The notes beneath the pieces were generated by a model, which had not been told where the DNA came from, did no database searches, and saw only the letters and a program-made list of their open reading frames with translations. A stretch of DNA of 64,000 bases from a virus, in IMG/VR virus record IMGVR_UViG_3300002835_000070, positions 1 to 64,000 of that record; one strand, written 5' to 3'. Made by a program: the position numbers and the translations under genes. Below are positions 6,650 to 59,928 of this stretch, piece after piece. Positions within the stretch are counted from its first letter, which is position 1; the number at the start of each line of letters is the position of its first letter.

Positions 6650-7174
6650 ATGAAAAAAAAATCAGTTATTTTAAGGCAACCATATATTGTAAATATTGAA
6701 AATACAACTAAAGATAAAATTGAAAATATTACTCTTTTTTTTAGTTACAGTTCATTAAATAAAAAGTTTAATCCCGATGGTAATTTAGAAGAAAACGGAT
6801 TGATAATATCGTCAATAAAAGACGTTTCTTATAAACAAATTTTAGAACATACACATTGGAATAAAATTAGAATTGGATTAACTTCAATTACAAGCGAAAC
6901 TGAAAATAATAATAGAAATTCCATACAATATAAATACTACGGAACAAATGGTCATTTCTTTAGTAAAACATTAATTTTATTAAGTGAAGATTTTTCAATT
7001 AATTCTGAAAATTCTCAACCTTATGTTGTTGATGGTTCTGTTGCTTTAATATTAAATTCTATCGAACCAAATTCAAAATTAACATTAAGATTTTACCCAA
7101 GAGATATGGAAGAGTGTAACGATTCTTTAGTTATTCAAAATACAGTAGATAAACTAATTAATAGAGAAATTTAA
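6650..7174 (+). CDS. Divergent paralogue of the candidate major capsid domain
   Basis: QPYIVNIENT...SYKQIL...IGLT...YVVDG...LRFYP aligns by eye with 59233-59928. Confidence 0.75.
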   Translation: MKKKSVILRQPYIVNIENTTKDKIENITLFFSYSSLNKKFNPDGNLEENGLIISSIKDVSYKQILEHTHWNKIRIGLTSITSETENNNRNSIQYKYYGTNGHFFSKTLILLSEDFSINSENSQPYVVDGSVALILNSIEPNSKLTLRFYPRDMEECNDSLVIQNTVDKLINREI

Positions 7175-14647: not shown

Positions 14648-15112
14648 ATGGAAAATAGAACTGCACAACCTATGATAATAACGGTTGAAAATAAAACTGA
14701 AAAAGAAATGCAAGATGTTATTTTGTTTGGCGCATCAAATATATTTAATAATTTATTATCCAAAAAAGATAATTTAATTGAGGGTTTAGAAATAAAATCA
14801 TTTATACCCAATGTTGAATATAGTGACATAATTTTAAAAACAATAACCAATACTCTTCATATTCAAAATATAGGTTTTAAAATTAATAATAGACCCGATG
14901 AATTTGATTTATTTATAAAAACGAAAGATATTAATGGCAATGTTGCTCAAATGAACGCACAATTAAATTCAGATTTAAAAAAAGAAGACGGACAAGCAAA
15001 AGGATATGATTTTTATACGGAAAGAAAATTTAGAATAGATGCTTTTACTGAATTAATAATACCTAAAATACTTGCAAAAACTAAAATAACTATTTACATT
15101 TATTACATATAA
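14648..15112 (+). CDS. Paralogue of the candidate major capsid domain
   Basis: QPMIITVEN...LFG...IPNVEY...TKDINGNVAQ...FRIDAFTELII aligns with 59233-59928. Confidence 0.8.
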   Translation: MENRTAQPMIITVENKTEKEMQDVILFGASNIFNNLLSKKDNLIEGLEIKSFIPNVEYSDIILKTITNTLHIQNIGFKINNRPDEFDLFIKTKDINGNVAQMNAQLNSDLKKEDGQAKGYDFYTERKFRIDAFTELIIPKILAKTKITIYIYYI

Positions 15113-15113
15113 A

Positions 15114-16388
15114 ATGGCTACAAAACCACAAAAATTAAAAAACCTATTATTCTTCGGAGATTTTGGCTGTACAACAGGATTCGCAAACGTTTCTAAAGAA
15201 TTAATTGAAAATTGGGCTAAAGACAAAAACCTAAAAATAGTTGTTTTCGCAATTAACGACTATGGCAAAGAGCCTTACGATTACTTGCCAAACGTAAAAG
15301 TAATACCTGCAATGTCGTCTGTACTTGCTGACGAACCAAAAGATGATGTGTATTGCAGATTACAGTTTTTACGACTTTTAATGCACAACGACTTCGATGT
15401 TGTGTTTTGTTTGAACGATATTGAAATTTTCAATGAAATGGGCGAACATTTAAGAAACGTAAAAAACGAAAAGAGAAAACAGAACAAACCGAGTTTTAAA
15501 TCTATGGTTTACTTCCCAATTGATAGTGAGCCAAGACCTGTTGACTTGAAAATATTGGATTTCTTTGAAGAAGCTATCACTTATACCGAATACGCTAAAA
15601 GCGTACTAACTCCTTTGACTACTCCGTCAAACGCTAAAAAAATTAAGGTAATTCCTCACGGTTGCAATACTAAAGAATTTTACCCGCTTTCTGAAGAAGA
15701 AAAATTAAAAGCAAAATTAGAAATAGTTGGAGAGGGTAATGAAGAAACTTTCTTATTTGGAACTGTCAATAGAAATTCAGCAAGAAAAGACTTGGGTAGT
15801 TTGGTTTTAGGATTTTCTACATTCAAGCGTAATTCAGAAGCAAATGCCGTGCTTTACTTACATTGTAATCCATTAGACCCATCAGGTATAAATATTCACA
15901 GATTATGTGAGCGTTTAGGTTTAAGAGTAGGGGTTGATATTATATTTCCAAAATCACATAGCGAAAACAAAGGTTGTGATAATGCAGAATTGAATAGAAT
16001 TTATAATGCTTTAGATTGCTTTGTTACAACAACTACCGCAGAGGGATGGGGTTTAACCGTTACGGAAGCAATGGCGACCAAAACTTTAGTAGTTTGTCCG
16101 CAACATACTTCTTTGACAGAAATTACAGAAGCAGGAAACAATACAATTTCTTTTATGTTCAATCAGGCAAATGTTTTTGTAAACGACTTTGAAAAAATAC
16201 GTTTCACAACAAATCCTCACGAAGTAACCAATTTACTTGGGATAGTTTACAATCTAAAACACGATGAGGAAGAAGTACAAATAATTGCTCAAGAGAAAGT
16301 AGAACGTGCTTACGAAAAGGTAAAAGGTTTGAAATGGGAAAATGTAGCAAAAGAGTTTAAATTAAAAATAGACAAATTAGCAAAATAA
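15114..16388 (+). CDS. Glycosyltransferase family 4 (GT-B)
   Basis: TGFANVS, IPHG, VNRNSARKD, EGWGLTVTEAMA (EX7E). Confidence 0.9.
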   Translation: MATKPQKLKNLLFFGDFGCTTGFANVSKELIENWAKDKNLKIVVFAINDYGKEPYDYLPNVKVIPAMSSVLADEPKDDVYCRLQFLRLLMHNDFDVVFCLNDIEIFNEMGEHLRNVKNEKRKQNKPSFKSMVYFPIDSEPRPVDLKILDFFEEAITYTEYAKSVLTPLTTPSNAKKIKVIPHGCNTKEFYPLSEEEKLKAKLEIVGEGNEETFLFGTVNRNSARKDLGSLVLGFSTFKRNSEANAVLYLHCNPLDPSGINIHRLCERLGLRVGVDIIFPKSHSENKGCDNAELNRIYNALDCFVTTTTAEGWGLTVTEAMATKTLVVCPQHTSLTEITEAGNNTISFMFNQANVFVNDFEKIRFTTNPHEVTNLLGIVYNLKHDEEEVQIIAQEKVERAYEKVKGLKWENVAKEFKLKIDKLAK

Positions 16389-16489: not shown

Positions 16490-16714
16490 ATGAGCAAGAA
16501 ATTAAAAAGTTTAGTTGAGCATAACTCGATGAGTACAACATTTCATTTAGGAATGTTAAGTCCGAAACCTACTCCTAATGGAATTGCTTGTCCTAAATGC
16601 GGGGAAGAGTTACTTGATACCAAGCCAAATGAAACATTGGCTTCTATGCCACCACAAAAAAATGTTGGGTGTTCAAGTAAAAAATGTGATTATACAGGTT
16701 ATAGAGTAATTTAA
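16490..16714 (+). CDS. Zn-ribbon hypothetical protein
   Basis: CPKCG...CSSKKC. Confidence 0.6.
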   Translation: MSKKLKSLVEHNSMSTTFHLGMLSPKPTPNGIACPKCGEELLDTKPNETLASMPPQKNVGCSSKKCDYTGYRVI

Positions 16715-16728
16715 TAAAAAACAAAAAT

Positions 16729-17013
16729 CCGATTGCAAGGTTAATTGCTACAATTATTATGGAAAATACATTTTTAGACAGGCTTAAAGTTGAAAAAAAT
16801 GAATTACTTGAAAAGGTAACTAAATTGGCAATGTTTTTAAATTCAGACAAAGTAGATAGCTTGTCTGATGCTAATGAATTACTTCTTAAACAACAGTTGG
16901 AAGCAATGAATACCTATTTGAACATTCTAATTATTAGAGTTGAATTATTAGAAAAATAAAATAAACCAAGAACCCGATTGCAAGGTTAAGTGCTACAATC
17001 ATTATGGAAAATA
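16729..17013 (+). repeat. Duplicated 40-bp leader (16729-16768 and 16974-17013)
   Basis: CCGATTGCAAGGTTAA(T/G)TGCTACAAT(T/C)ATTATGGAAAATA, 38/40 identical, each including a start codon. Confidence 0.9.
16759..16959 (+). CDS. crAss001_48-like helical hairpin protein
   Basis: FLDRLKVEKNEL..K..KL..FL...LLKQQLEAMNTYLNIL..R. Confidence 0.75.
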   Translation: MENTFLDRLKVEKNELLEKVTKLAMFLNSDKVDSLSDANELLLKQQLEAMNTYLNILIIRVELLEK

Positions 17014-17213
17014 TGACATTAGGACAAAGAAGAGTTCAAAGAAACTTTAATCCAACTGCTAATCCGCAGGTTGAAGAATTAAAAGAAAGTTATGCTCAAA
17101 TTATTGATAAACTTGAAAGTTTGAGAAACGAAAAAAACGGTAGAGAAATTTCAATTGCTCAAACTGAAGCCGAAACATCTTGTATGTATGCGGTTAAAAG
17201 TTTGTTTGTTTAA
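17004..17213 (+). CDS. Acb2/Tad1-like helical hairpin (possible signalling-nucleotide sponge)
   Basis: GQRRV..NFNP...REISIAQTEAETSCMYAVKS resembles the Acb2-type R-x-S-x-A-x-T-x-x-E...M-W-A-V-K tail. Confidence 0.55.
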   Translation: MENMTLGQRRVQRNFNPTANPQVEELKESYAQIIDKLESLRNEKNGREISIAQTEAETSCMYAVKSLFV

Positions 17214-17224
17214 TCCAAAGAACT

Positions 17225-18418
17225 ATGAGCGCAACTAAAGAAAAATCACAGGGCAAAATTAAAATTAAATACAGAAAACCAATGCAACAAAGTTTTTTAA
17301 ATAAATTTTCCTGCAAATTACTAAACGCATTTTTATTCTTTATTCCTCCTTTTTTTAAGAAGAAAAAAAAATACGTTGATGTAAGCAAACAACAAGGGCT
17401 ACCCTATATTGTTAGTGTTGAAAATACTACTACAAAAGCAGTTCACAATGTAGAATTGTTTGGTTCTTACGATATTTTAAGTAGAGATGTTTTTGATAAT
17501 TACGGGAACTATGTTAGTCGTGGATTGAAAATAACTTCTAACGTTCCTAACGTAAGTTATAAAGACATACTTCACGCATTTGCTTTTATGAAATTCAGGG
17601 TTGGTTTAACTTACATTATGACGGTTAATCAAAAACAAATTTTCCACCCATTAAAAGTTCTTAAAAAAATGATTAGTGGAGATTTAAGCGAGAAAGTGTT
17701 GATAGTAACTAAAGACCCTTATCAGCAACAAATGAACATAGTTGCGGTAAAATCTGATTATGAGATTGACGGATTTACAAGTGTAATTATTCCAACATTA
17801 GAACCAAAAACAACTGCTAATTATTATTTCTACCCTGAACCTTTAGCTTTTGAAGAGGTTAAAAAAGAGAATTTCGCATTTAGGTTTTTCAAATCCATTT
17901 CCGACTATTTTAAGAAAAAAGAAGTCGTTAAACGTGCAAGTTTACCATTCACTATCGAAATTGCTAACTATACAGACGAAGTAAAGAAAGACGTTTCGTT
18001 GTTTGGGTCTTTTTCTAAAATAAGCCCGAATGAAGACAGTTATTTTAACAAAAGCAATAGTCTTGTTTGTAATGATGTTTTGATTAGTTCTTTAACACCT
18101 AATATCTCTTACGCAGAAATTCTTTATTATATTACGAATAACCCTGTTGGTATTGGGTTGAATTATATAAGAAGTTTAGAGGGCGATAAAAGTCAAATTA
18201 CGGCAGAATTTAAAATCAGAACAAAAGATGCCACAGGAAATGTAGCGCAGAGAACTATTGTTCCTGTAATTGACCCTTATCAGCAACAATCTGACGTTAT
18301 TAGTAATAATCAAAAATTTACTATTGACGGATTTACTGAATTTATAATTAGTGAACTCCAACCAAAAACTACCGTTGTTTATCAGTTTTATCCTGAAGAA
18401 GAGGTTGTGAAGAAATAA
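17225..18418 (+). CDS. Protein with two tandem copies of the candidate capsid domain
   Basis: Both halves contain LFGS, VGLTYI/IGLNYI, DPYQQQ, IDGFT and FYPE, matching 59233-59928. Confidence 0.88.
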   Translation: MSATKEKSQGKIKIKYRKPMQQSFLNKFSCKLLNAFLFFIPPFFKKKKKYVDVSKQQGLPYIVSVENTTTKAVHNVELFGSYDILSRDVFDNYGNYVSRGLKITSNVPNVSYKDILHAFAFMKFRVGLTYIMTVNQKQIFHPLKVLKKMISGDLSEKVLIVTKDPYQQQMNIVAVKSDYEIDGFTSVIIPTLEPKTTANYYFYPEPLAFEEVKKENFAFRFFKSISDYFKKKEVVKRASLPFTIEIANYTDEVKKDVSLFGSFSKISPNEDSYFNKSNSLVCNDVLISSLTPNISYAEILYYITNNPVGIGLNYIRSLEGDKSQITAEFKIRTKDATGNVAQRTIVPVIDPYQQQSDVISNNQKFTIDGFTEFIISELQPKTTVVYQFYPEEEVVKK

Positions 18419-18423
18419 ATTAC

Positions 18424-18530
18424 TACATTTGTCAGGTAGTTGCCACTCGACAAAAAGTAACTTAAAAATTTTATGCTCTTACAATGAAGAACGAGGTCGA
18501 GTGCGTTTGGATTTGTAGGAGCATTTTTTG
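18424..18530 (+). promoter_or_regulatory. Promoter plus structured leader of the NUMOD4-HNH gene
   Basis: TACATTTG; crossing stems 18444-18451/18496-18503 and 18473-18483/18514-18524, then a T tract. Confidence 0.6.
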
Positions 18531-18543
18531 TAAAAAAAATATT

Positions 18544-19050
18544 ATGCAAGAAGTTTGGAAAGATATTAAAGATTTTGAGGGTTTTTATCAAGTTTCTAAT
18601 TTAGGGAATGTAAAAAGGTTGAAAGGAAAAGGTAGTGTTTCGGAAAGGTTATTGTGCCGTAAAATAGATAGGTATGGCTATGTAAAAAGGGTTTTATGTA
18701 GATATGGTAAATGTTTTTTCTTAACTGAACATAGATTAGTCGCTAACTCATTTATAGAAAATCCCGAAAATAAAGCAACAGTAAATCATATTAACGGAAT
18801 TAAGACTGACAATAGAGTAGAGAATTTAGAATGGAATACTCAATTAGAAAACAAACAAAACGCAGTCAATTCAGGTTTGACAAACTTAAAAGGTAATAAC
18901 CACCCAAGAAGTAAATTGACAGAAATTCAAGTTTTAGAAATTAAAGATGTTGGTTTGTCTAAAACAAAAACTTTTTTGTCTAAAAAATACGGTGTTTCAA
19001 GAATTACCATTTCAAGAATAATTAATAATGTAAATTGGAATCATATATAA
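18544..19050 (+). CDS. NUMOD4-HNH homing endonuclease
   Basis: EVWKDIKDFEGFYQVSNLGNVK, HRLVA..F, VNHINGIKTDNRVENLEW. Confidence 0.93.
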   Translation: MQEVWKDIKDFEGFYQVSNLGNVKRLKGKGSVSERLLCRKIDRYGYVKRVLCRYGKCFFLTEHRLVANSFIENPENKATVNHINGIKTDNRVENLEWNTQLENKQNAVNSGLTNLKGNNHPRSKLTEIQVLEIKDVGLSKTKTFLSKKYGVSRITISRIINNVNWNHI

Positions 19051-55678: not shown

Positions 55679-56503
55679 ATGGAAGAAAGAGAACCGAAAT
55701 TATTAGTTGCAGTTGGACGTAAAGGGTGCGGTAAAACTTTTTCAACAAGAAAAATGCTTACAAGTTATGTTCAAGGCAATATTTCAAAAGGTATTGCCCC
55801 AAGAAGAGTTTTAATATTTGATGTAAATGATGAGTTTGAGGACATAAAAGCATTGGCTTTAAAAGATGTGGCTTTATTTTCTATGCACCCAAAAATAGAG
55901 ATAAGAAGAATTAGACCATTCAACAAGGACGGAAGACCTATGGGTATTAATGAAATGCAAGAAACATTATTTAAAATAGTTAATAATTTTAGAGGAGGAA
56001 TGCTTTTGTTAGAGGATTTAAACGGTTACGTTGGGGATTATATCCCACAGGATTTAATAGGTAAAATAGTAAGAGCAAGACACGCAGATTTGGACATAAT
56101 TACGCATTTTCAATCAATAGGAAGAATATCGCCTAAAATTTGGCAGAACGTCAACGCTATTCGTTTTCACAAAAATACAGATTCAGTTTTAAAACATTCC
56201 AAGAAATTTGATAATTTTTCAGAAATGTTTTTATTAGTGGAGGCTTATGTAAATTCCGAGTATCATTTAGGAAATGAAAGAATACAAGTTTGGGTTGATA
56301 CAGAAAACGAAAAAATTAAAATACCAAAAGAAAATATAGCTAAATTTGAAAAAATTGTAGAATTGTACTTAATGGAAAACCATAAAAGAATACTTTCCCC
56401 TTTATTAAATAAAAATATTTTCTTTAAAAATAATAAACCATTAACAATGCAAGAAGTTTTAAAAATAAAAAAAGCAGAAATGTTAAAATATTATTTAGAT
56501 TAA
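55679..56503 (+). CDS. A32/P9-like FtsK-HerA genome packaging ATPase
   Basis: Walker A GRKGCGKT, LIFD, Walker B LLLED, arginine-finger motif RARH, then hhhxQ. Confidence 0.78.
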   Translation: MEEREPKLLVAVGRKGCGKTFSTRKMLTSYVQGNISKGIAPRRVLIFDVNDEFEDIKALALKDVALFSMHPKIEIRRIRPFNKDGRPMGINEMQETLFKIVNNFRGGMLLLEDLNGYVGDYIPQDLIGKIVRARHADLDIITHFQSIGRISPKIWQNVNAIRFHKNTDSVLKHSKKFDNFSEMFLLVEAYVNSEYHLGNERIQVWVDTENEKIKIPKENIAKFEKIVELYLMENHKRILSPLLNKNIFFKNNKPLTMQEVLKIKKAEMLKYYLD

Positions 56504-59232: not shown

Positions 59233-59928
59233 ATGTCAAACGTAAGAAGATATTTAAGCAATGCACGTCAAAGTGCAATGGAATCTTTCTCAAATGCTGA
59301 CGGATTCATCGACCAAGACCTGTCATTCACAGGAGATGATTTCTTTAGAGCAGACGGAGGAATGGGGCAACAAGATATTCAAACATCTCAACCCTACATT
59401 ATCAACGTTACTTCTACATCAGGAGCAGCGATTGCTAACTTTGCTATATTAGGTTCATACCAATATATCAATAACACAGGATTCGTTAACGGTTCGTTAA
59501 CAATCGGTCCAGTGACTGTGAGTTCAGGTATTCCTGACATCACTTACCAAGAAATGTTATACCAATTTATGAATAATCCTTATTCTGTTGGTTTAACTTA
59601 CATCCAATCGGCTACTACTAACCAAGTTCTACAAACTTTGTCAGTAAACACGAGAGATGCGAATGGTAACTTGGCACAAAAAACTTTAGTGCCTACAATT
59701 GACCCATATCAGCAACAAACGAATATCGTTGCAATGAAGTATGCTTACCGTATTGATGGTTTCACAAAAATCATCATTGCTCAAATTTTAGCAACTGCTA
59801 CATTGTCATTATACTTCTATCCTGCTGATAACATCAACCTTGCAAGAGCATTGGGTGGTCAACCTGTAAGCAGACAATTCGGAACACCTCCTGTAACTAA
59901 TGGACAAACCATCAAGTTAAGAGCGTAA
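59233..59928 (+). CDS. Candidate major capsid protein (single vertical jelly-roll-like)
   Basis: About 150-aa beta-strand-rich core; apparent enrichment in TTC/ATC/AAC codons; own terminator; near the A32-like ATPase and among TM proteins. The fold is inferred. Confidence 0.7.
   Translation: MSNVRRYLSNARQSAMESFSNADGFIDQDLSFTGDDFFRADGGMGQQDIQTSQPYIINVTSTSGAAIANFAILGSYQYINNTGFVNGSLTIGPVTVSSGIPDITYQEMLYQFMNNPYSVGLTYIQSATTNQVLQTLSVNTRDANGNLAQKTLVPTIDPYQQQTNIVAMKYAYRIDGFTKIIIAQILATATLSLYFYPADNINLARALGGQPVSRQFGTPPVTNGQTIKLRA

What the first reader, a model, noticed from the sequence alone, without database searches (positions are those of the whole stretch)
17225..18418. Tandem double copy of the capsid domain in one ORF
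Seen: both halves align with the capsid candidate. DPYQQQ, IDGFT and FYP occur in all three domains, and TRDANGNLAQKTLVPTIDPYQQQ matches TKDATGNVAQRTIVPVIDPYQQQ. Each half is preceded by an aromatic/basic segment (FLFFIPPFFKKKKK; FAFRFFKSISDYFKKK). Known: double-jelly-roll capsids are proposed to derive from duplication and fusion of single jelly rolls. Inference: an independent single-to-double fusion, possibly a minor capsid protein or decoy.
Basis: partly seen in the sequence, partly recalled or inferred. Interest (0 to 1): 0.78.

Follow-up and report, generated by a model that had tools for sequence, protein, structure and literature searches.

The report
Fused double coat-like jelly-roll protein
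An uncultured 102-kb virus carries a conserved gene in which a whole membrane-tethered relative of its jelly-roll coat-protein candidate was duplicated and fused head to tail; the single-to-double fusion can still be traced in the sequence, but nothing yet shows that it builds the shell.

Summary
ORF 17225-18418 (397 aa) holds two jelly-roll domains that are 36% identical to each other (E 5e-33). Each is about 34% identical to the 231-aa coat-protein candidate at 59233. The repeated unit is a whole gene: an aromatic/basic leader, the jelly roll and an EEV(V)KK tail.

The fused form is kept in about 44 orthologue clusters (49-97% identity) at one syntenic position. It is under purifying selection, with dN/dS 0.21-0.38 against 0.05-0.12 for its neighbours.

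A second tandem protein (P0258) arose independently elsewhere in the family (AU p 0.011).

The capsomer reading is not shown.
- Both halves belong to an accessory branch of the family. That branch lacks the coat protein's arms and carries membrane-binding segments or transmembrane anchors instead.
- Copy number at this locus varies between close relatives, and one relative has no tandem there.
- Codon bias is average.
- Fold searches give only generic jelly-roll matches (Z 7.0 or less). Both rolls superpose on PRD1 P3 only at 13.6 Å rmsd.
- The trimer prediction gave no verdict.

My best reading (confidence 0.4) is a membrane-tethered minor virion or assembly protein. By sequence look-up, the scan has noted this only on this genome.

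The parts
17225..18418 (+). Gene for the 397-aa tandem double jelly-roll protein
   Evidence: Open frame. About 44 orthologue clusters of 380-410 aa. dN/dS 0.21-0.38.
17297..17371 (+). Leader of unit 1 (aa 25-49): hydrophobic FLFFIPPFF followed by KKKKK. Predicted helix 25-38. It is the most hydrophobic 18-mer of the protein.
   Evidence: I40, P41 and K48 are invariant and K45-47 nearly so in 27 orthologues. Hydropathy. The same F[IL]LFFIPKK motif occurs in single-domain relatives P0239, P0266 and P0271.
17399..17839 (+). Jelly-roll domain 1 (aa 59-205)
   Evidence: HMM E 2e-66. pLDDT about 90. VIA-align matches to jelly rolls, Z up to 6.3.
17873..17920 (+). Inter-domain amphipathic aromatic/basic helix (aa 217-232, FAFRFFKSISDYFKKK). 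It is the degenerate leader of unit 2.
   Evidence: Predicted helix 217-229. Hydrophobic moment 0.67. F229 is invariant. It aligns with the unit-1 leader.
17942..18397 (+). Jelly-roll domain 2 (aa 240-391)
   Evidence: HMM E 5e-62. pLDDT 83-94. VIA-align Z 6.4 to the second roll of PRD1 P3.
59233..59928 (+). 231-aa single jelly-roll coat-protein candidate, the reference paralogue. It has an acidic N-arm and a C-arm that the tandem lacks.
   Evidence: More than 1400 homologue clusters, the best 120 at 79-93% identity. AF2 core pLDDT 96-98. C-ending codon bias ranks 7 of 128.
14648..15112 (+). 154-aa single-domain accessory paralogue, directly upstream of the glycosyltransferase gene
   Evidence: Absent from relatives L010, L012 and L013. 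GC3 0.13.
6650..7174 (+). 174-aa single-domain accessory paralogue
   Evidence: Groups with P0270, P0279 and P0290 (99/97*). Absent from L010 and L013. GC3 0.115.

Best explanation
SHOWN:
- The gene encodes a functional, conserved protein.
- It was made by head-to-tail duplication and fusion of one whole unit: an aromatic/basic leader, an eight-stranded jelly roll and a short EEV(V)KK tail.
- The unit is a diverged paralogue (about 34% identity) of the virus's 231-aa jelly-roll coat-protein candidate.
- Both halves fall in an accessory branch of that family. Its members have lost the coat protein's acidic N-arm and its C-arm. They carry a hydrophobic/basic leader, an amphipathic aromatic/basic tail or a real transmembrane anchor instead.

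INFERRED:
- The protein is made in the cytoplasm. The leader has basic residues on both sides and there is no signal peptide.
- It lies on the cytoplasmic face of a membrane, held by the N-terminal FLFFIPPFF-KKKKK segment and the amphipathic linker helix. In tailless membrane-containing viruses, that face becomes the capsid-facing side of the virion's inner membrane.
- This would present two covalently linked coat-like jelly rolls side by side.
- I propose it acts as a low-copy virion or assembly component that docks coat-protein subunits to the membrane, either as a capsid-membrane tie or as an assembly seed.
- It is not the bulk capsomer. The role is replaceable, because relatives vary the number of such paralogues at this locus.
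For: Duplication and fusion:
-, with a unit-to-unit alignment that includes leader and tail.
- The fusion is conserved in 27 aligned orthologues, with invariant I40, P41 and F229 in the two segments.

Fold:
- Two confident jelly rolls and two helices at exactly those segments; pTM 0.71.

Accessory branch:
- Trees. N halves form a clade at 100/94* (98/66 with P0161_N included), and C halves at 100/98*.
- A sister relation of the two is not rejected (AU p 0.23).

Membrane elements in branch members:
- The FFIP leader in P0239, P0266 and P0271.
- FEKFxxWLKK-type tails.
- C-terminal or double transmembrane anchors in P0286, P0287, P0300 and P0318.
- The linker has hydrophobic moment 0.67, and the leader is the most hydrophobic 18-mer of the protein.

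Real, selected gene at a fixed syntenic place:
-.

Context of a tailless, membrane-type virus:
- A 274-aa AAA/HerA-like ATPase, many small membrane proteins and the coat candidate lie at 55.7-61 kb.
- No Pfam HK97 capsid, portal, terminase or NCLDV capsid hit in the 102-kb genome.

Known precedent (PMC10551542):
- The STIV coat protein B345 binds the inner membrane through a hydrophobic terminal helix.
- Membrane-anchored vertex proteins are proposed to seed capsid-membrane co-assembly.
Against: - There is no direct evidence that the protein is in virions or on a membrane.
- The gene sits about 40 kb from the structural block, among a glycosyltransferase, a homing endonuclease and toxin-like or polyvalent genes.
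- It evolves faster than its neighbours (61% against 83-90% amino-acid identity in L011 and L013).
- It is absent from this locus in L019.
- Its codon bias is average, rank 56 of 128.
- All of these equally fit a non-structural accessory role.
- Fold matches are generic (Z 7.0 or less).
- That ORF 59233 is the coat protein is itself an inference.
Confidence: 0.4

Rival explanations
1. It is a true double-jelly-roll capsomer. Three copies would form a pseudo-hexamer that replaces a hexamer of the single jelly-roll coat protein at some lattice positions. That would make it a young, independent re-invention of the PRD1/STIV-type coat protein.
For: - Two jelly rolls in one chain are derived from the coat-like family.
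- In the second look at Foldseek's matches, PRD1 P3 tops the list (Z 7.0 with 197 residues in order; Z 6.4 for one roll). STIV B345 scores 5.9.
- Leaders that precede each roll would sit at the membrane-facing base of vertical rolls.
- pTM 0.71 suggests a fixed packing of the two domains.
Against: - The superposition of both rolls on PRD1 P3 has rmsd 13.6 Å, so the modelled orientation is not that of a double-jelly-roll coat protein.
- In the wide search, no double-jelly-roll protein aligned over more than about 118 residues.
- All Z values are below the tool's noise mark of 8.
- The protein lacks the coat candidate's N- and C-arms.
- It varies in presence and evolves fast.
- Its codon bias is average.
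Confidence: 0.15
2. It is a non-virion accessory protein on the host cytoplasmic membrane that exploits its likeness to the coat protein. It might block superinfection or poison assembly of related competing viruses. It might act as a decoy for a host defence that senses the coat protein.
For: - The gene lies in an accessory region next to an HNH homing endonuclease, a zeta-toxin-like gene and polyvalent effector proteins.
- A hypervariable islet of small ORFs lies directly upstream.
- Copy number of the paralogues at the locus varies between close relatives.
- dN/dS is 3-5 times that of the neighbours.
- Membrane-binding segments are present.
- There is no high-expression codon bias.
Against: - No match to any PADLOC defence model or to any known exclusion family.
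- The gene is still under clear purifying selection, and the coat-family motifs DPYQQQ, IDGFT and FYP are kept. That also fits a structural partner of the coat protein.
- No such coat-mimic exclusion protein is known to me for tailless viruses (my own knowledge).
Confidence: 0.25
3. It is a vertex or spike protein with stacked jelly rolls, like STIV A223. One roll would form the penton base and the second would project outwards and take part in host recognition.
For: - Tandem and triple jelly rolls build the STIV turret (PMC10551542).
- The N domain matches the PR772 chain 6q5u_O at Z 6.1, rmsd 2.8 Å over 91 of 124 residues. I take this chain to be the penton protein P31 from its size, not from the entry.
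- PRD1 P5 scores Z 4.7-5.0 and STIV A223 Z 4.6.
- Fast evolution fits a host-range protein.
Against: - An amphipathic aromatic/basic helix between the two rolls would be misplaced in a stacked turret away from the membrane.
- Z values are at noise level.
- The gene is far from the structural block.
- Only 2-4 copies could be modelled, so a pentamer was not tested.
Confidence: 0.1
4. It is a lectin-like glycan-binding module that works with the neighbouring sugar-modifying enzymes, for example by presenting or binding a glycosylated substrate at the membrane.
For: - Accessory-branch paralogues sit directly beside the GT4 glycosyltransferase: 14648 upstream of it here, and a 186-aa paralogue 4 nt downstream of it in L019 and L020.
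- Fold hits include carbohydrate-binding modules: tandem CBM32, the AlgX module and others.
- Single jelly-roll capsid proteins are thought to derive from carbohydrate-binding proteins (PMC8812541).
Against: - The tandem gene itself lies about 800 nt and several small genes away from the glycosyltransferase.
- No carbohydrate-binding family matches by sequence.
- Structural matches to carbohydrate-binding modules are no better than those to capsid proteins.
Confidence: 0.07

Closest known systems
[quoted passage not shown]
   Same: Both have two eight-stranded jelly rolls in one chain, in a virus with a packaging ATPase and membrane proteins of the tailless type. STIV B345 also has a hydrophobic membrane-binding terminal helix (PMC10551542). 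These proteins give the best, though weak, structural matches.
   Different: - Here the two rolls are still 36% identical and have unfused paralogues in the same genome. In known double-jelly-roll coat proteins, no sequence similarity between the halves remains (my own knowledge).
- The modelled domain orientation does not superpose (rmsd 13.6 Å).
- The protein is not the conserved, highly expressed coat candidate of its own genome.
- There is no sequence-family membership.
Stacked multi-jelly-roll vertex proteins of STIV (A223 with two rolls, C381 with three)
   Same: They are tandem jelly rolls fused in one chain in a membrane-containing tailless virus. They are tied to the inner membrane (through A55) and are proposed to seed co-assembly (PMC10551542).
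   Different: - The match is weak (Z 4.6 to 6bo3_B).
- Here the membrane-binding elements are part of the protein itself, and one lies between the rolls.
- No pentamer was tested.
Two single jelly-roll coat proteins of Helvetiavirae (HCIV-1, HHIV-2, P23-77)
   Same: They are vertical single jelly-roll coat proteins that pair as dimers, the non-covalent equivalent of a double roll, above an inner membrane. Membrane proteins position them (PMC6414509).
   Different: - Those viruses have 16-30 kb genomes and two separate coat genes side by side (PMC12642351, PMC12643093).
- Here there is one conserved coat candidate plus dispersed accessory paralogues, one of which is covalently doubled.
- None of these proteins appeared among the listed fold matches, which is inconclusive.
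Capsid-protein paralogue families of large viruses (for example the Vp54 paralogues of PBCV-1; my own knowledge, not tested)
   Same: One main coat gene is accompanied by several diverged paralogues scattered over a large genome. Some of them are used at special capsid positions.
   Different: - Those are all double-jelly-roll proteins in eukaryotic giant viruses.
- Here the paralogues are single rolls with membrane anchors in a bacterial-type virus, and their copy number varies between close relatives.

Membership tests
The coat-like jelly-roll family of this virus group (undescribed; DPYQQQ / IDGFT / FYP motifs) | Significant sequence match of each half to the family profile and to ORF 59233 | tested here: met
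   BLASTP E 2e-36 and 9e-35. HMM E 2e-66 and 5e-62. tblastn in the window's own genome.
The coat-like jelly-roll family of this virus group (undescribed; DPYQQQ / IDGFT / FYP motifs) | Eight-stranded jelly-roll fold of the domain | tested here: met
   AF2 pLDDT about 90 for both domains and 96-98 for the ORF 59233 core. The matches listed are largely jelly-roll or similar beta-sandwich proteins.
The coat-like jelly-roll family of this virus group (undescribed; DPYQQQ / IDGFT / FYP motifs) | Coat-type arms: an acidic N-arm with the F/Y-x-N/G-A-x-G motif, and a C-terminal arm | tested here: not met
   The tandem has basic/hydrophobic leaders and no C-arm. 76 of 147 family representatives have an acidic N-arm and 28 carry the motif. 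The tandem therefore belongs to the accessory branch, not the coat branch.
[quoted passage not shown] | Two jelly rolls in one polypeptide | tested here: met
[quoted passage not shown] | Side-by-side vertical packing of the two rolls, so that a trimer is pseudo-hexagonal | tested here: inconclusive
   The alignment of both rolls to PRD1 P3 covers 197 residues but at rmsd 13.6 Å, and single rolls align at 4.0 Å. Model coordinates could not be inspected.
[quoted passage not shown] | Sequence membership in a known double-jelly-roll capsid family | tested here: not met
   No Pfam or PHROG family for the protein. No Capsid_NCLDV hit in the genome. The profile of the single-domain family (A3) found nothing in the PDB sequences.
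[quoted passage not shown] | It is the main, universally kept shell protein of its virus group | tested here: inconclusive
   The tandem is missing from the syntenic locus of L019, but that contig is only 4.8 kb. It evolves faster than its neighbours and has average codon bias, whereas ORF 59233 ranks 7 of 128. Virion content cannot be tested with these tools.
Stacked jelly-roll vertex proteins (STIV A223 type) | Fold likeness to penton-base and turret jelly rolls, and a fivefold ring | tested here: inconclusive
   PR772 chain 6q5u_O Z 6.1, PRD1 P5 Z 4.7-5.0, STIV A223 Z 4.6. All are below the noise mark of 8. A pentamer cannot be modelled here.
Vertical single jelly-roll coat proteins of Helvetiavirae | Two adjacent single jelly-roll coat genes whose products form the capsomers | tested here: inconclusive
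   Only one family member lies in the structural block, and the other copies are 38-52 kb away. No Helvetiavirae protein is among the listed fold matches.

The most novel reading that the evidence does not exclude
The tandem protein would be a young double-jelly-roll capsomer whose origin can still be read in its sequence. It would be a covalently linked pair of coat-like single rolls that assembles into the shell of an undescribed 100-kb membrane-containing bacterial virus, either as a trimer or mixed with the single-roll coat protein. With the independent second tandem (P0258), that would show the duplication-fusion route from single to double jelly-roll capsids happening repeatedly in nature. 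Whether known double-jelly-roll capsids arose that way is now disputed (PMC8812541).
Probability: 0.15. Interest if true: 0.85.

Novelty: new variant of a known kind. Interest (0 to 1): 0.55.

Why it matters
Double jelly-roll coat proteins define a whole virus kingdom. Whether they arose by duplication and fusion of a single jelly roll or were taken ready-made from cellular proteins is under debate (PMC8812541). In all known cases the two halves no longer resemble each other in sequence.

Here one viral genome holds a single-roll coat candidate, unfused accessory paralogues and a fused pair that is still 36% identical. A second, independent fusion exists elsewhere in the family. This shows that the fusion step happens readily, and it gives a tractable system to ask what a fresh double roll can do.

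The accessory branch is also of interest in itself. Coat-protein relatives fitted with membrane anchors have, to my knowledge, not been described. They could reveal how large tailless viruses tie shell to membrane, or how coat-protein copies are put to other uses.

Tried and rejected
- Trimer prediction (residues 60-392, three copies): no verdict, score 0.28 and 0.01 against a mark of 0.42. This is no evidence either way.
Synteny came from the search for related loci instead.
- The scan of viral contigs found no relative.
- Search for fused forms longer than 405 aa: none found, which is weak evidence.
- tblastn and megablast against deposited phages: no match.
- No Pfam or PHROG family for any paralogue at the default threshold. 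PADLOC gave nothing for the tandem and only chance-level hits for neighbours.
- The profile of the family against PDB sequences gave only a chance hit.
- ESM Atlas gave only chance-level hits.
- Foldseek against the PDB and against viral models gave low TM scores to many tandem beta-sandwich proteins, such as CBM32 pairs, discoidin pairs and picornavirus polyproteins. This reflects the fold only.
- Sphaerolipovirus and simulovirus coat proteins did not appear in the listed fold matches.
- A literature search found no description of this virus type or of this protein.
- I rejected a signal peptide or lipoprotein. The hydrophobic stretch starts at residue 30 and has basic residues on both sides.
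- I rejected a pseudogene or chance ORF, because orthologues are conserved and dN/dS is well below 1.

Full report
**Observation**

ORF 17225-18418 is a 397-aa open frame on the + strand.
- Its N half and C half are 36% identical over 187 residues (E 5e-33).
- Each half is about 34% identical to the 231-aa ORF 59233-59928 (E 2e-36 and 9e-35).
- A domain profile built from the genome's own copies hits residues 59-205 and 240-391 with E 2e-66 and 5e-62.

The window is the first 64 kb of a 102,228-bp virus record that CheckV rates complete. The genome holds six copies of the domain in five genes: 59233, 17225 (twice), 6650, 14648, and 97286 outside the window. None matches any Pfam or PHROG family at the default threshold.

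**What was duplicated**

Unit 1 (aa 25-216) aligns end to end with unit 2 (aa 217-397).
- The alignment includes the aromatic/basic leader (AFLFF-IPPFFKKKKK against AFRFFKSISDYFKKK).
- It also includes the short acidic/basic tail after FYP (EEVKK against EEVVKK).
- The two DNA halves keep in-register residual identity, 72% over 78 nt plus an 18-nt exact match.

So a whole gene was duplicated head to tail and the copies fused. The linker is the degenerate leader of the second copy.

**Is it a real, selected gene?**

About 44 orthologue clusters of 380-410 aa, at 49-97% identity, keep the fused form. In an alignment of 27 of them, both segments are conserved: I40, P41 and K48 are invariant, K45-47 nearly so, and F229 in the linker is invariant.

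Four related metagenome contigs keep the gene at the same place, between the GT4 glycosyltransferase and the HNH/zeta-toxin-like genes.

Nei-Gojobori estimates give dN/dS 0.21-0.38 for the tandem, against 0.05-0.12 for three conserved neighbours. Amino-acid identity to L011 and L013 is 61% where those neighbours are 83-90%. The gene is therefore under purifying selection but changes 3-5 times faster than its surroundings.

**Fold**

AlphaFold2 on the orthologue alignment gives mean pLDDT 77 and pTM 0.71.
- There are two beta-sandwich domains at pLDDT about 90.
- There are helices at 25-38 and 217-229, that is, at the two segments.
- ORF 59233 with a 116-sequence alignment gives pLDDT 85, with a core of 96-98.

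Structure searches return many jelly-roll and similar beta-sandwich proteins and nothing specific.
- Wide VIA-align search of the tandem: best Z 6.3. Hits include PR772 chain O, Faustovirus, PBCV-1, phiCjT23 and FLiP capsid proteins, alongside carbohydrate-binding modules and peptidase domains.
- Second look at Foldseek's matches: PRD1 P3 ranks first. Z is 7.0 for 197 residues in order but at rmsd 13.6 Å, and Z is 6.4 at 4.0 Å for one roll. STIV B345 scores 5.9, PRD1 P5 4.7 and STIV A223 4.6.
- ORF 59233: best Z 6.1. Foldseek found nothing at E 0.001 or better.

All values are below the tool's noise mark of 8. The domains are jelly rolls, but the fold does not say 'capsid'. The modelled orientation of the two rolls is not that of a double-jelly-roll coat protein. 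I could not inspect the coordinates.

**Family structure**

An exhaustive search with ORF 59233 finds 555 clusters at the 50% identity level. Most are 220-250 aa.

Trees of the domain separate two branches.
- The coat-like branch holds ORF 59233 and most representatives.
- The accessory branch holds the N halves (clade 100/94*, or 98/66 with P0161_N included), the C halves (100/98*), ORF 6650, ORF 14648 and about a dozen single-domain proteins.

This split is starred in the quick tree (96*) but only 90/64 in the careful tree. Whether N and C halves are sisters is unresolved, and it is not rejected (AU p 0.23).

In the coat-like branch the N-arm is usually acidic (76 of 147 representatives). 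It often carries the F/Y-x-N/G-A-x-G motif noted earlier in this scan (28 of 147).

Accessory-branch members instead carry membrane-type elements:
- P0239, P0266 and P0271 have the same F[IL]LFFIPKK leader as the tandem, plus an amphipathic FEKFxxWLKK-type tail.
- P0286, P0287 and P0300 have C-terminal hydrophobic anchors.
- P0318 has transmembrane segments at both ends.

In the tandem, the leader is the most hydrophobic 18-mer, and the linker helix has a hydrophobic moment of 0.67. The leader is basic on both sides and starts at residue 30, so it is not a signal peptide. The jelly rolls should stay on the cytoplasmic side.

**A second, independent fusion**

P0258 (411 aa) is also a tandem of two family domains, with a different linker and an insertion in its second roll. 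Both of its halves fall inside a well-supported clade of the coat-like branch together with the single-domain P0316 and P0312 (95/97*). A tree that forces all halves of both tandems into one clade is rejected (AU p 0.011). The caveat is that I named this grouping after seeing the tree.

**Locus dynamics**

The stretch between the glycosyltransferase and the zeta-toxin-like gene is a variable islet.
- The small ORFs just upstream of the tandem have no counterparts in relatives.
- L018 has a single-domain paralogue directly before its tandem.
- L019 and L020 have a 186-aa single-domain paralogue 4 nt after the glycosyltransferase. In L019 there is no tandem before the next conserved gene.
- ORF 6650 and ORF 14648 are absent from L010 and L013. 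They have the lowest GC3 in the genome, 0.115 and 0.13.
- By C-ending codon preference, ORF 59233 ranks 7 of 128 genes and the tandem ranks 56.

**Context**

I checked the genome-level reading only in part.
- A 274-aa AAA/HerA-like ATPase lies at 55679.
- Small membrane proteins surround ORF 59233.
- No Pfam HK97 capsid, portal, terminase or NCLDV capsid hit exists in the 102 kb.

This agrees with earlier notes of this scan that read the genome as a large tailless, membrane-containing virus. Those notes are leads, not evidence.

**Interpretation**

What the protein is can be stated with high confidence. It is a conserved fusion of two copies of a membrane-tethered, coat-derived jelly-roll unit.

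How it works is inferred. The two segments should hold the two rolls on the cytoplasmic face of a membrane. In PRD1- and STIV-type assembly, that face becomes the capsid-facing side of the inner membrane (PMC10551542). There the protein could dock or seed coat subunits.

The rivals are:
- a true pseudo-hexameric capsomer;
- a non-virion coat mimic used in exclusion or as a decoy;
- a stacked vertex protein;
- a lectin-like partner of the sugar enzymes.

None is excluded, and they are weighed in the fields above. The trimer prediction gave no verdict and counts for nothing.

**Comparison and novelty**

Tandem jelly rolls are known in tailless viruses in two forms: side-by-side coat proteins, and stacked turret proteins (PMC10551542). 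Non-covalent pairs of single rolls build the shells of Helvetiavirae (PMC6414509).

Three things are new here:
- a fusion whose halves are still clearly alike, with unfused paralogues beside it;
- recurrence of the fusion within one family;
- a whole branch of coat-protein relatives with membrane anchors.

This bears on the debate over whether double jelly-roll coats arose by duplication and fusion or were taken from cells (PMC8812541). It shows that the fusion step is easy. It does not show that this product is a capsomer. No paper describing the family or the virus type was found.

By sequence look-up, the scan has noted this protein only on this genome.

Noticed in passing
P0258 (411-aa metagenome protein): A second tandem double jelly-roll protein of the same family. 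It has no hydrophobic leader, and its second roll carries an insertion. It nests with single-domain P0316 and P0312 in the coat-like branch, so the fusion is independent. Its genomic context could not be read.
   Followed up: partly
window 16759-17213; L010 8285-9974; L011 8629-9928; L013 9032-9942: The small ORFs directly upstream of the tandem gene share no similarity between otherwise 83-90% identical relatives. The zinc-ribbon-like 74-aa ORF at 16490-16714 (CPKCG...C..C) is kept at 73-84%. This is a hypervariable islet.
   Followed up: partly
window 18484-19050; L010 11173-11573: The NUMOD4/HNH homing-endonuclease gene just downstream of the tandem is present in L011, L012 and L013 but absent in L010. 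A second copy sits further downstream in L011 and L013. This looks like presence/absence polymorphism of a mobile endonuclease.
   Followed up: no
window 14648-15112 and 6650-7174: These two single-domain paralogues are missing from close relatives. They have the lowest third-position GC of the genome (0.13 and 0.115, against 0.31 for the coat candidate), as expected for recently gained or weakly expressed cassette genes.
   Followed up: partly
L019 2686-3246; L020 342-902; L018 2073-2741: Relatives carry a 186-222-aa single jelly-roll paralogue of the ORF 6650 subgroup at this locus, with a basic amphipathic N-terminus (MKKVKLFFSKFLGFFK...). In L019 and L020 it lies 4 nt after the glycosyltransferase. 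In L018 it lies just before the tandem.
   Followed up: partly
L011 5441-8014: In this relative the GT4 glycosyltransferase is part of an 857-aa protein, about twice the length of the 424-aa gene at window 15114-16388. The ORF before it (197 aa) has no counterpart here.
   Followed up: no
P0318, P0286, P0287, P0300, P0247: These family members have true hydrophobic anchors: transmembrane segments at both ends in P0318, and C-terminal anchors in the others. They are coat-like jelly rolls built as integral or tail-anchored membrane proteins.
   Followed up: partly
genome 97286-97750 (L008 13286-13747), outside the window: A 154-aa paralogue that matches only profile positions 31-148, so the first strands are missing or replaced. 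It keeps DPYQYQ and sits on a very long branch in the coat-like part of the tree. Its role is unknown.
   Followed up: no
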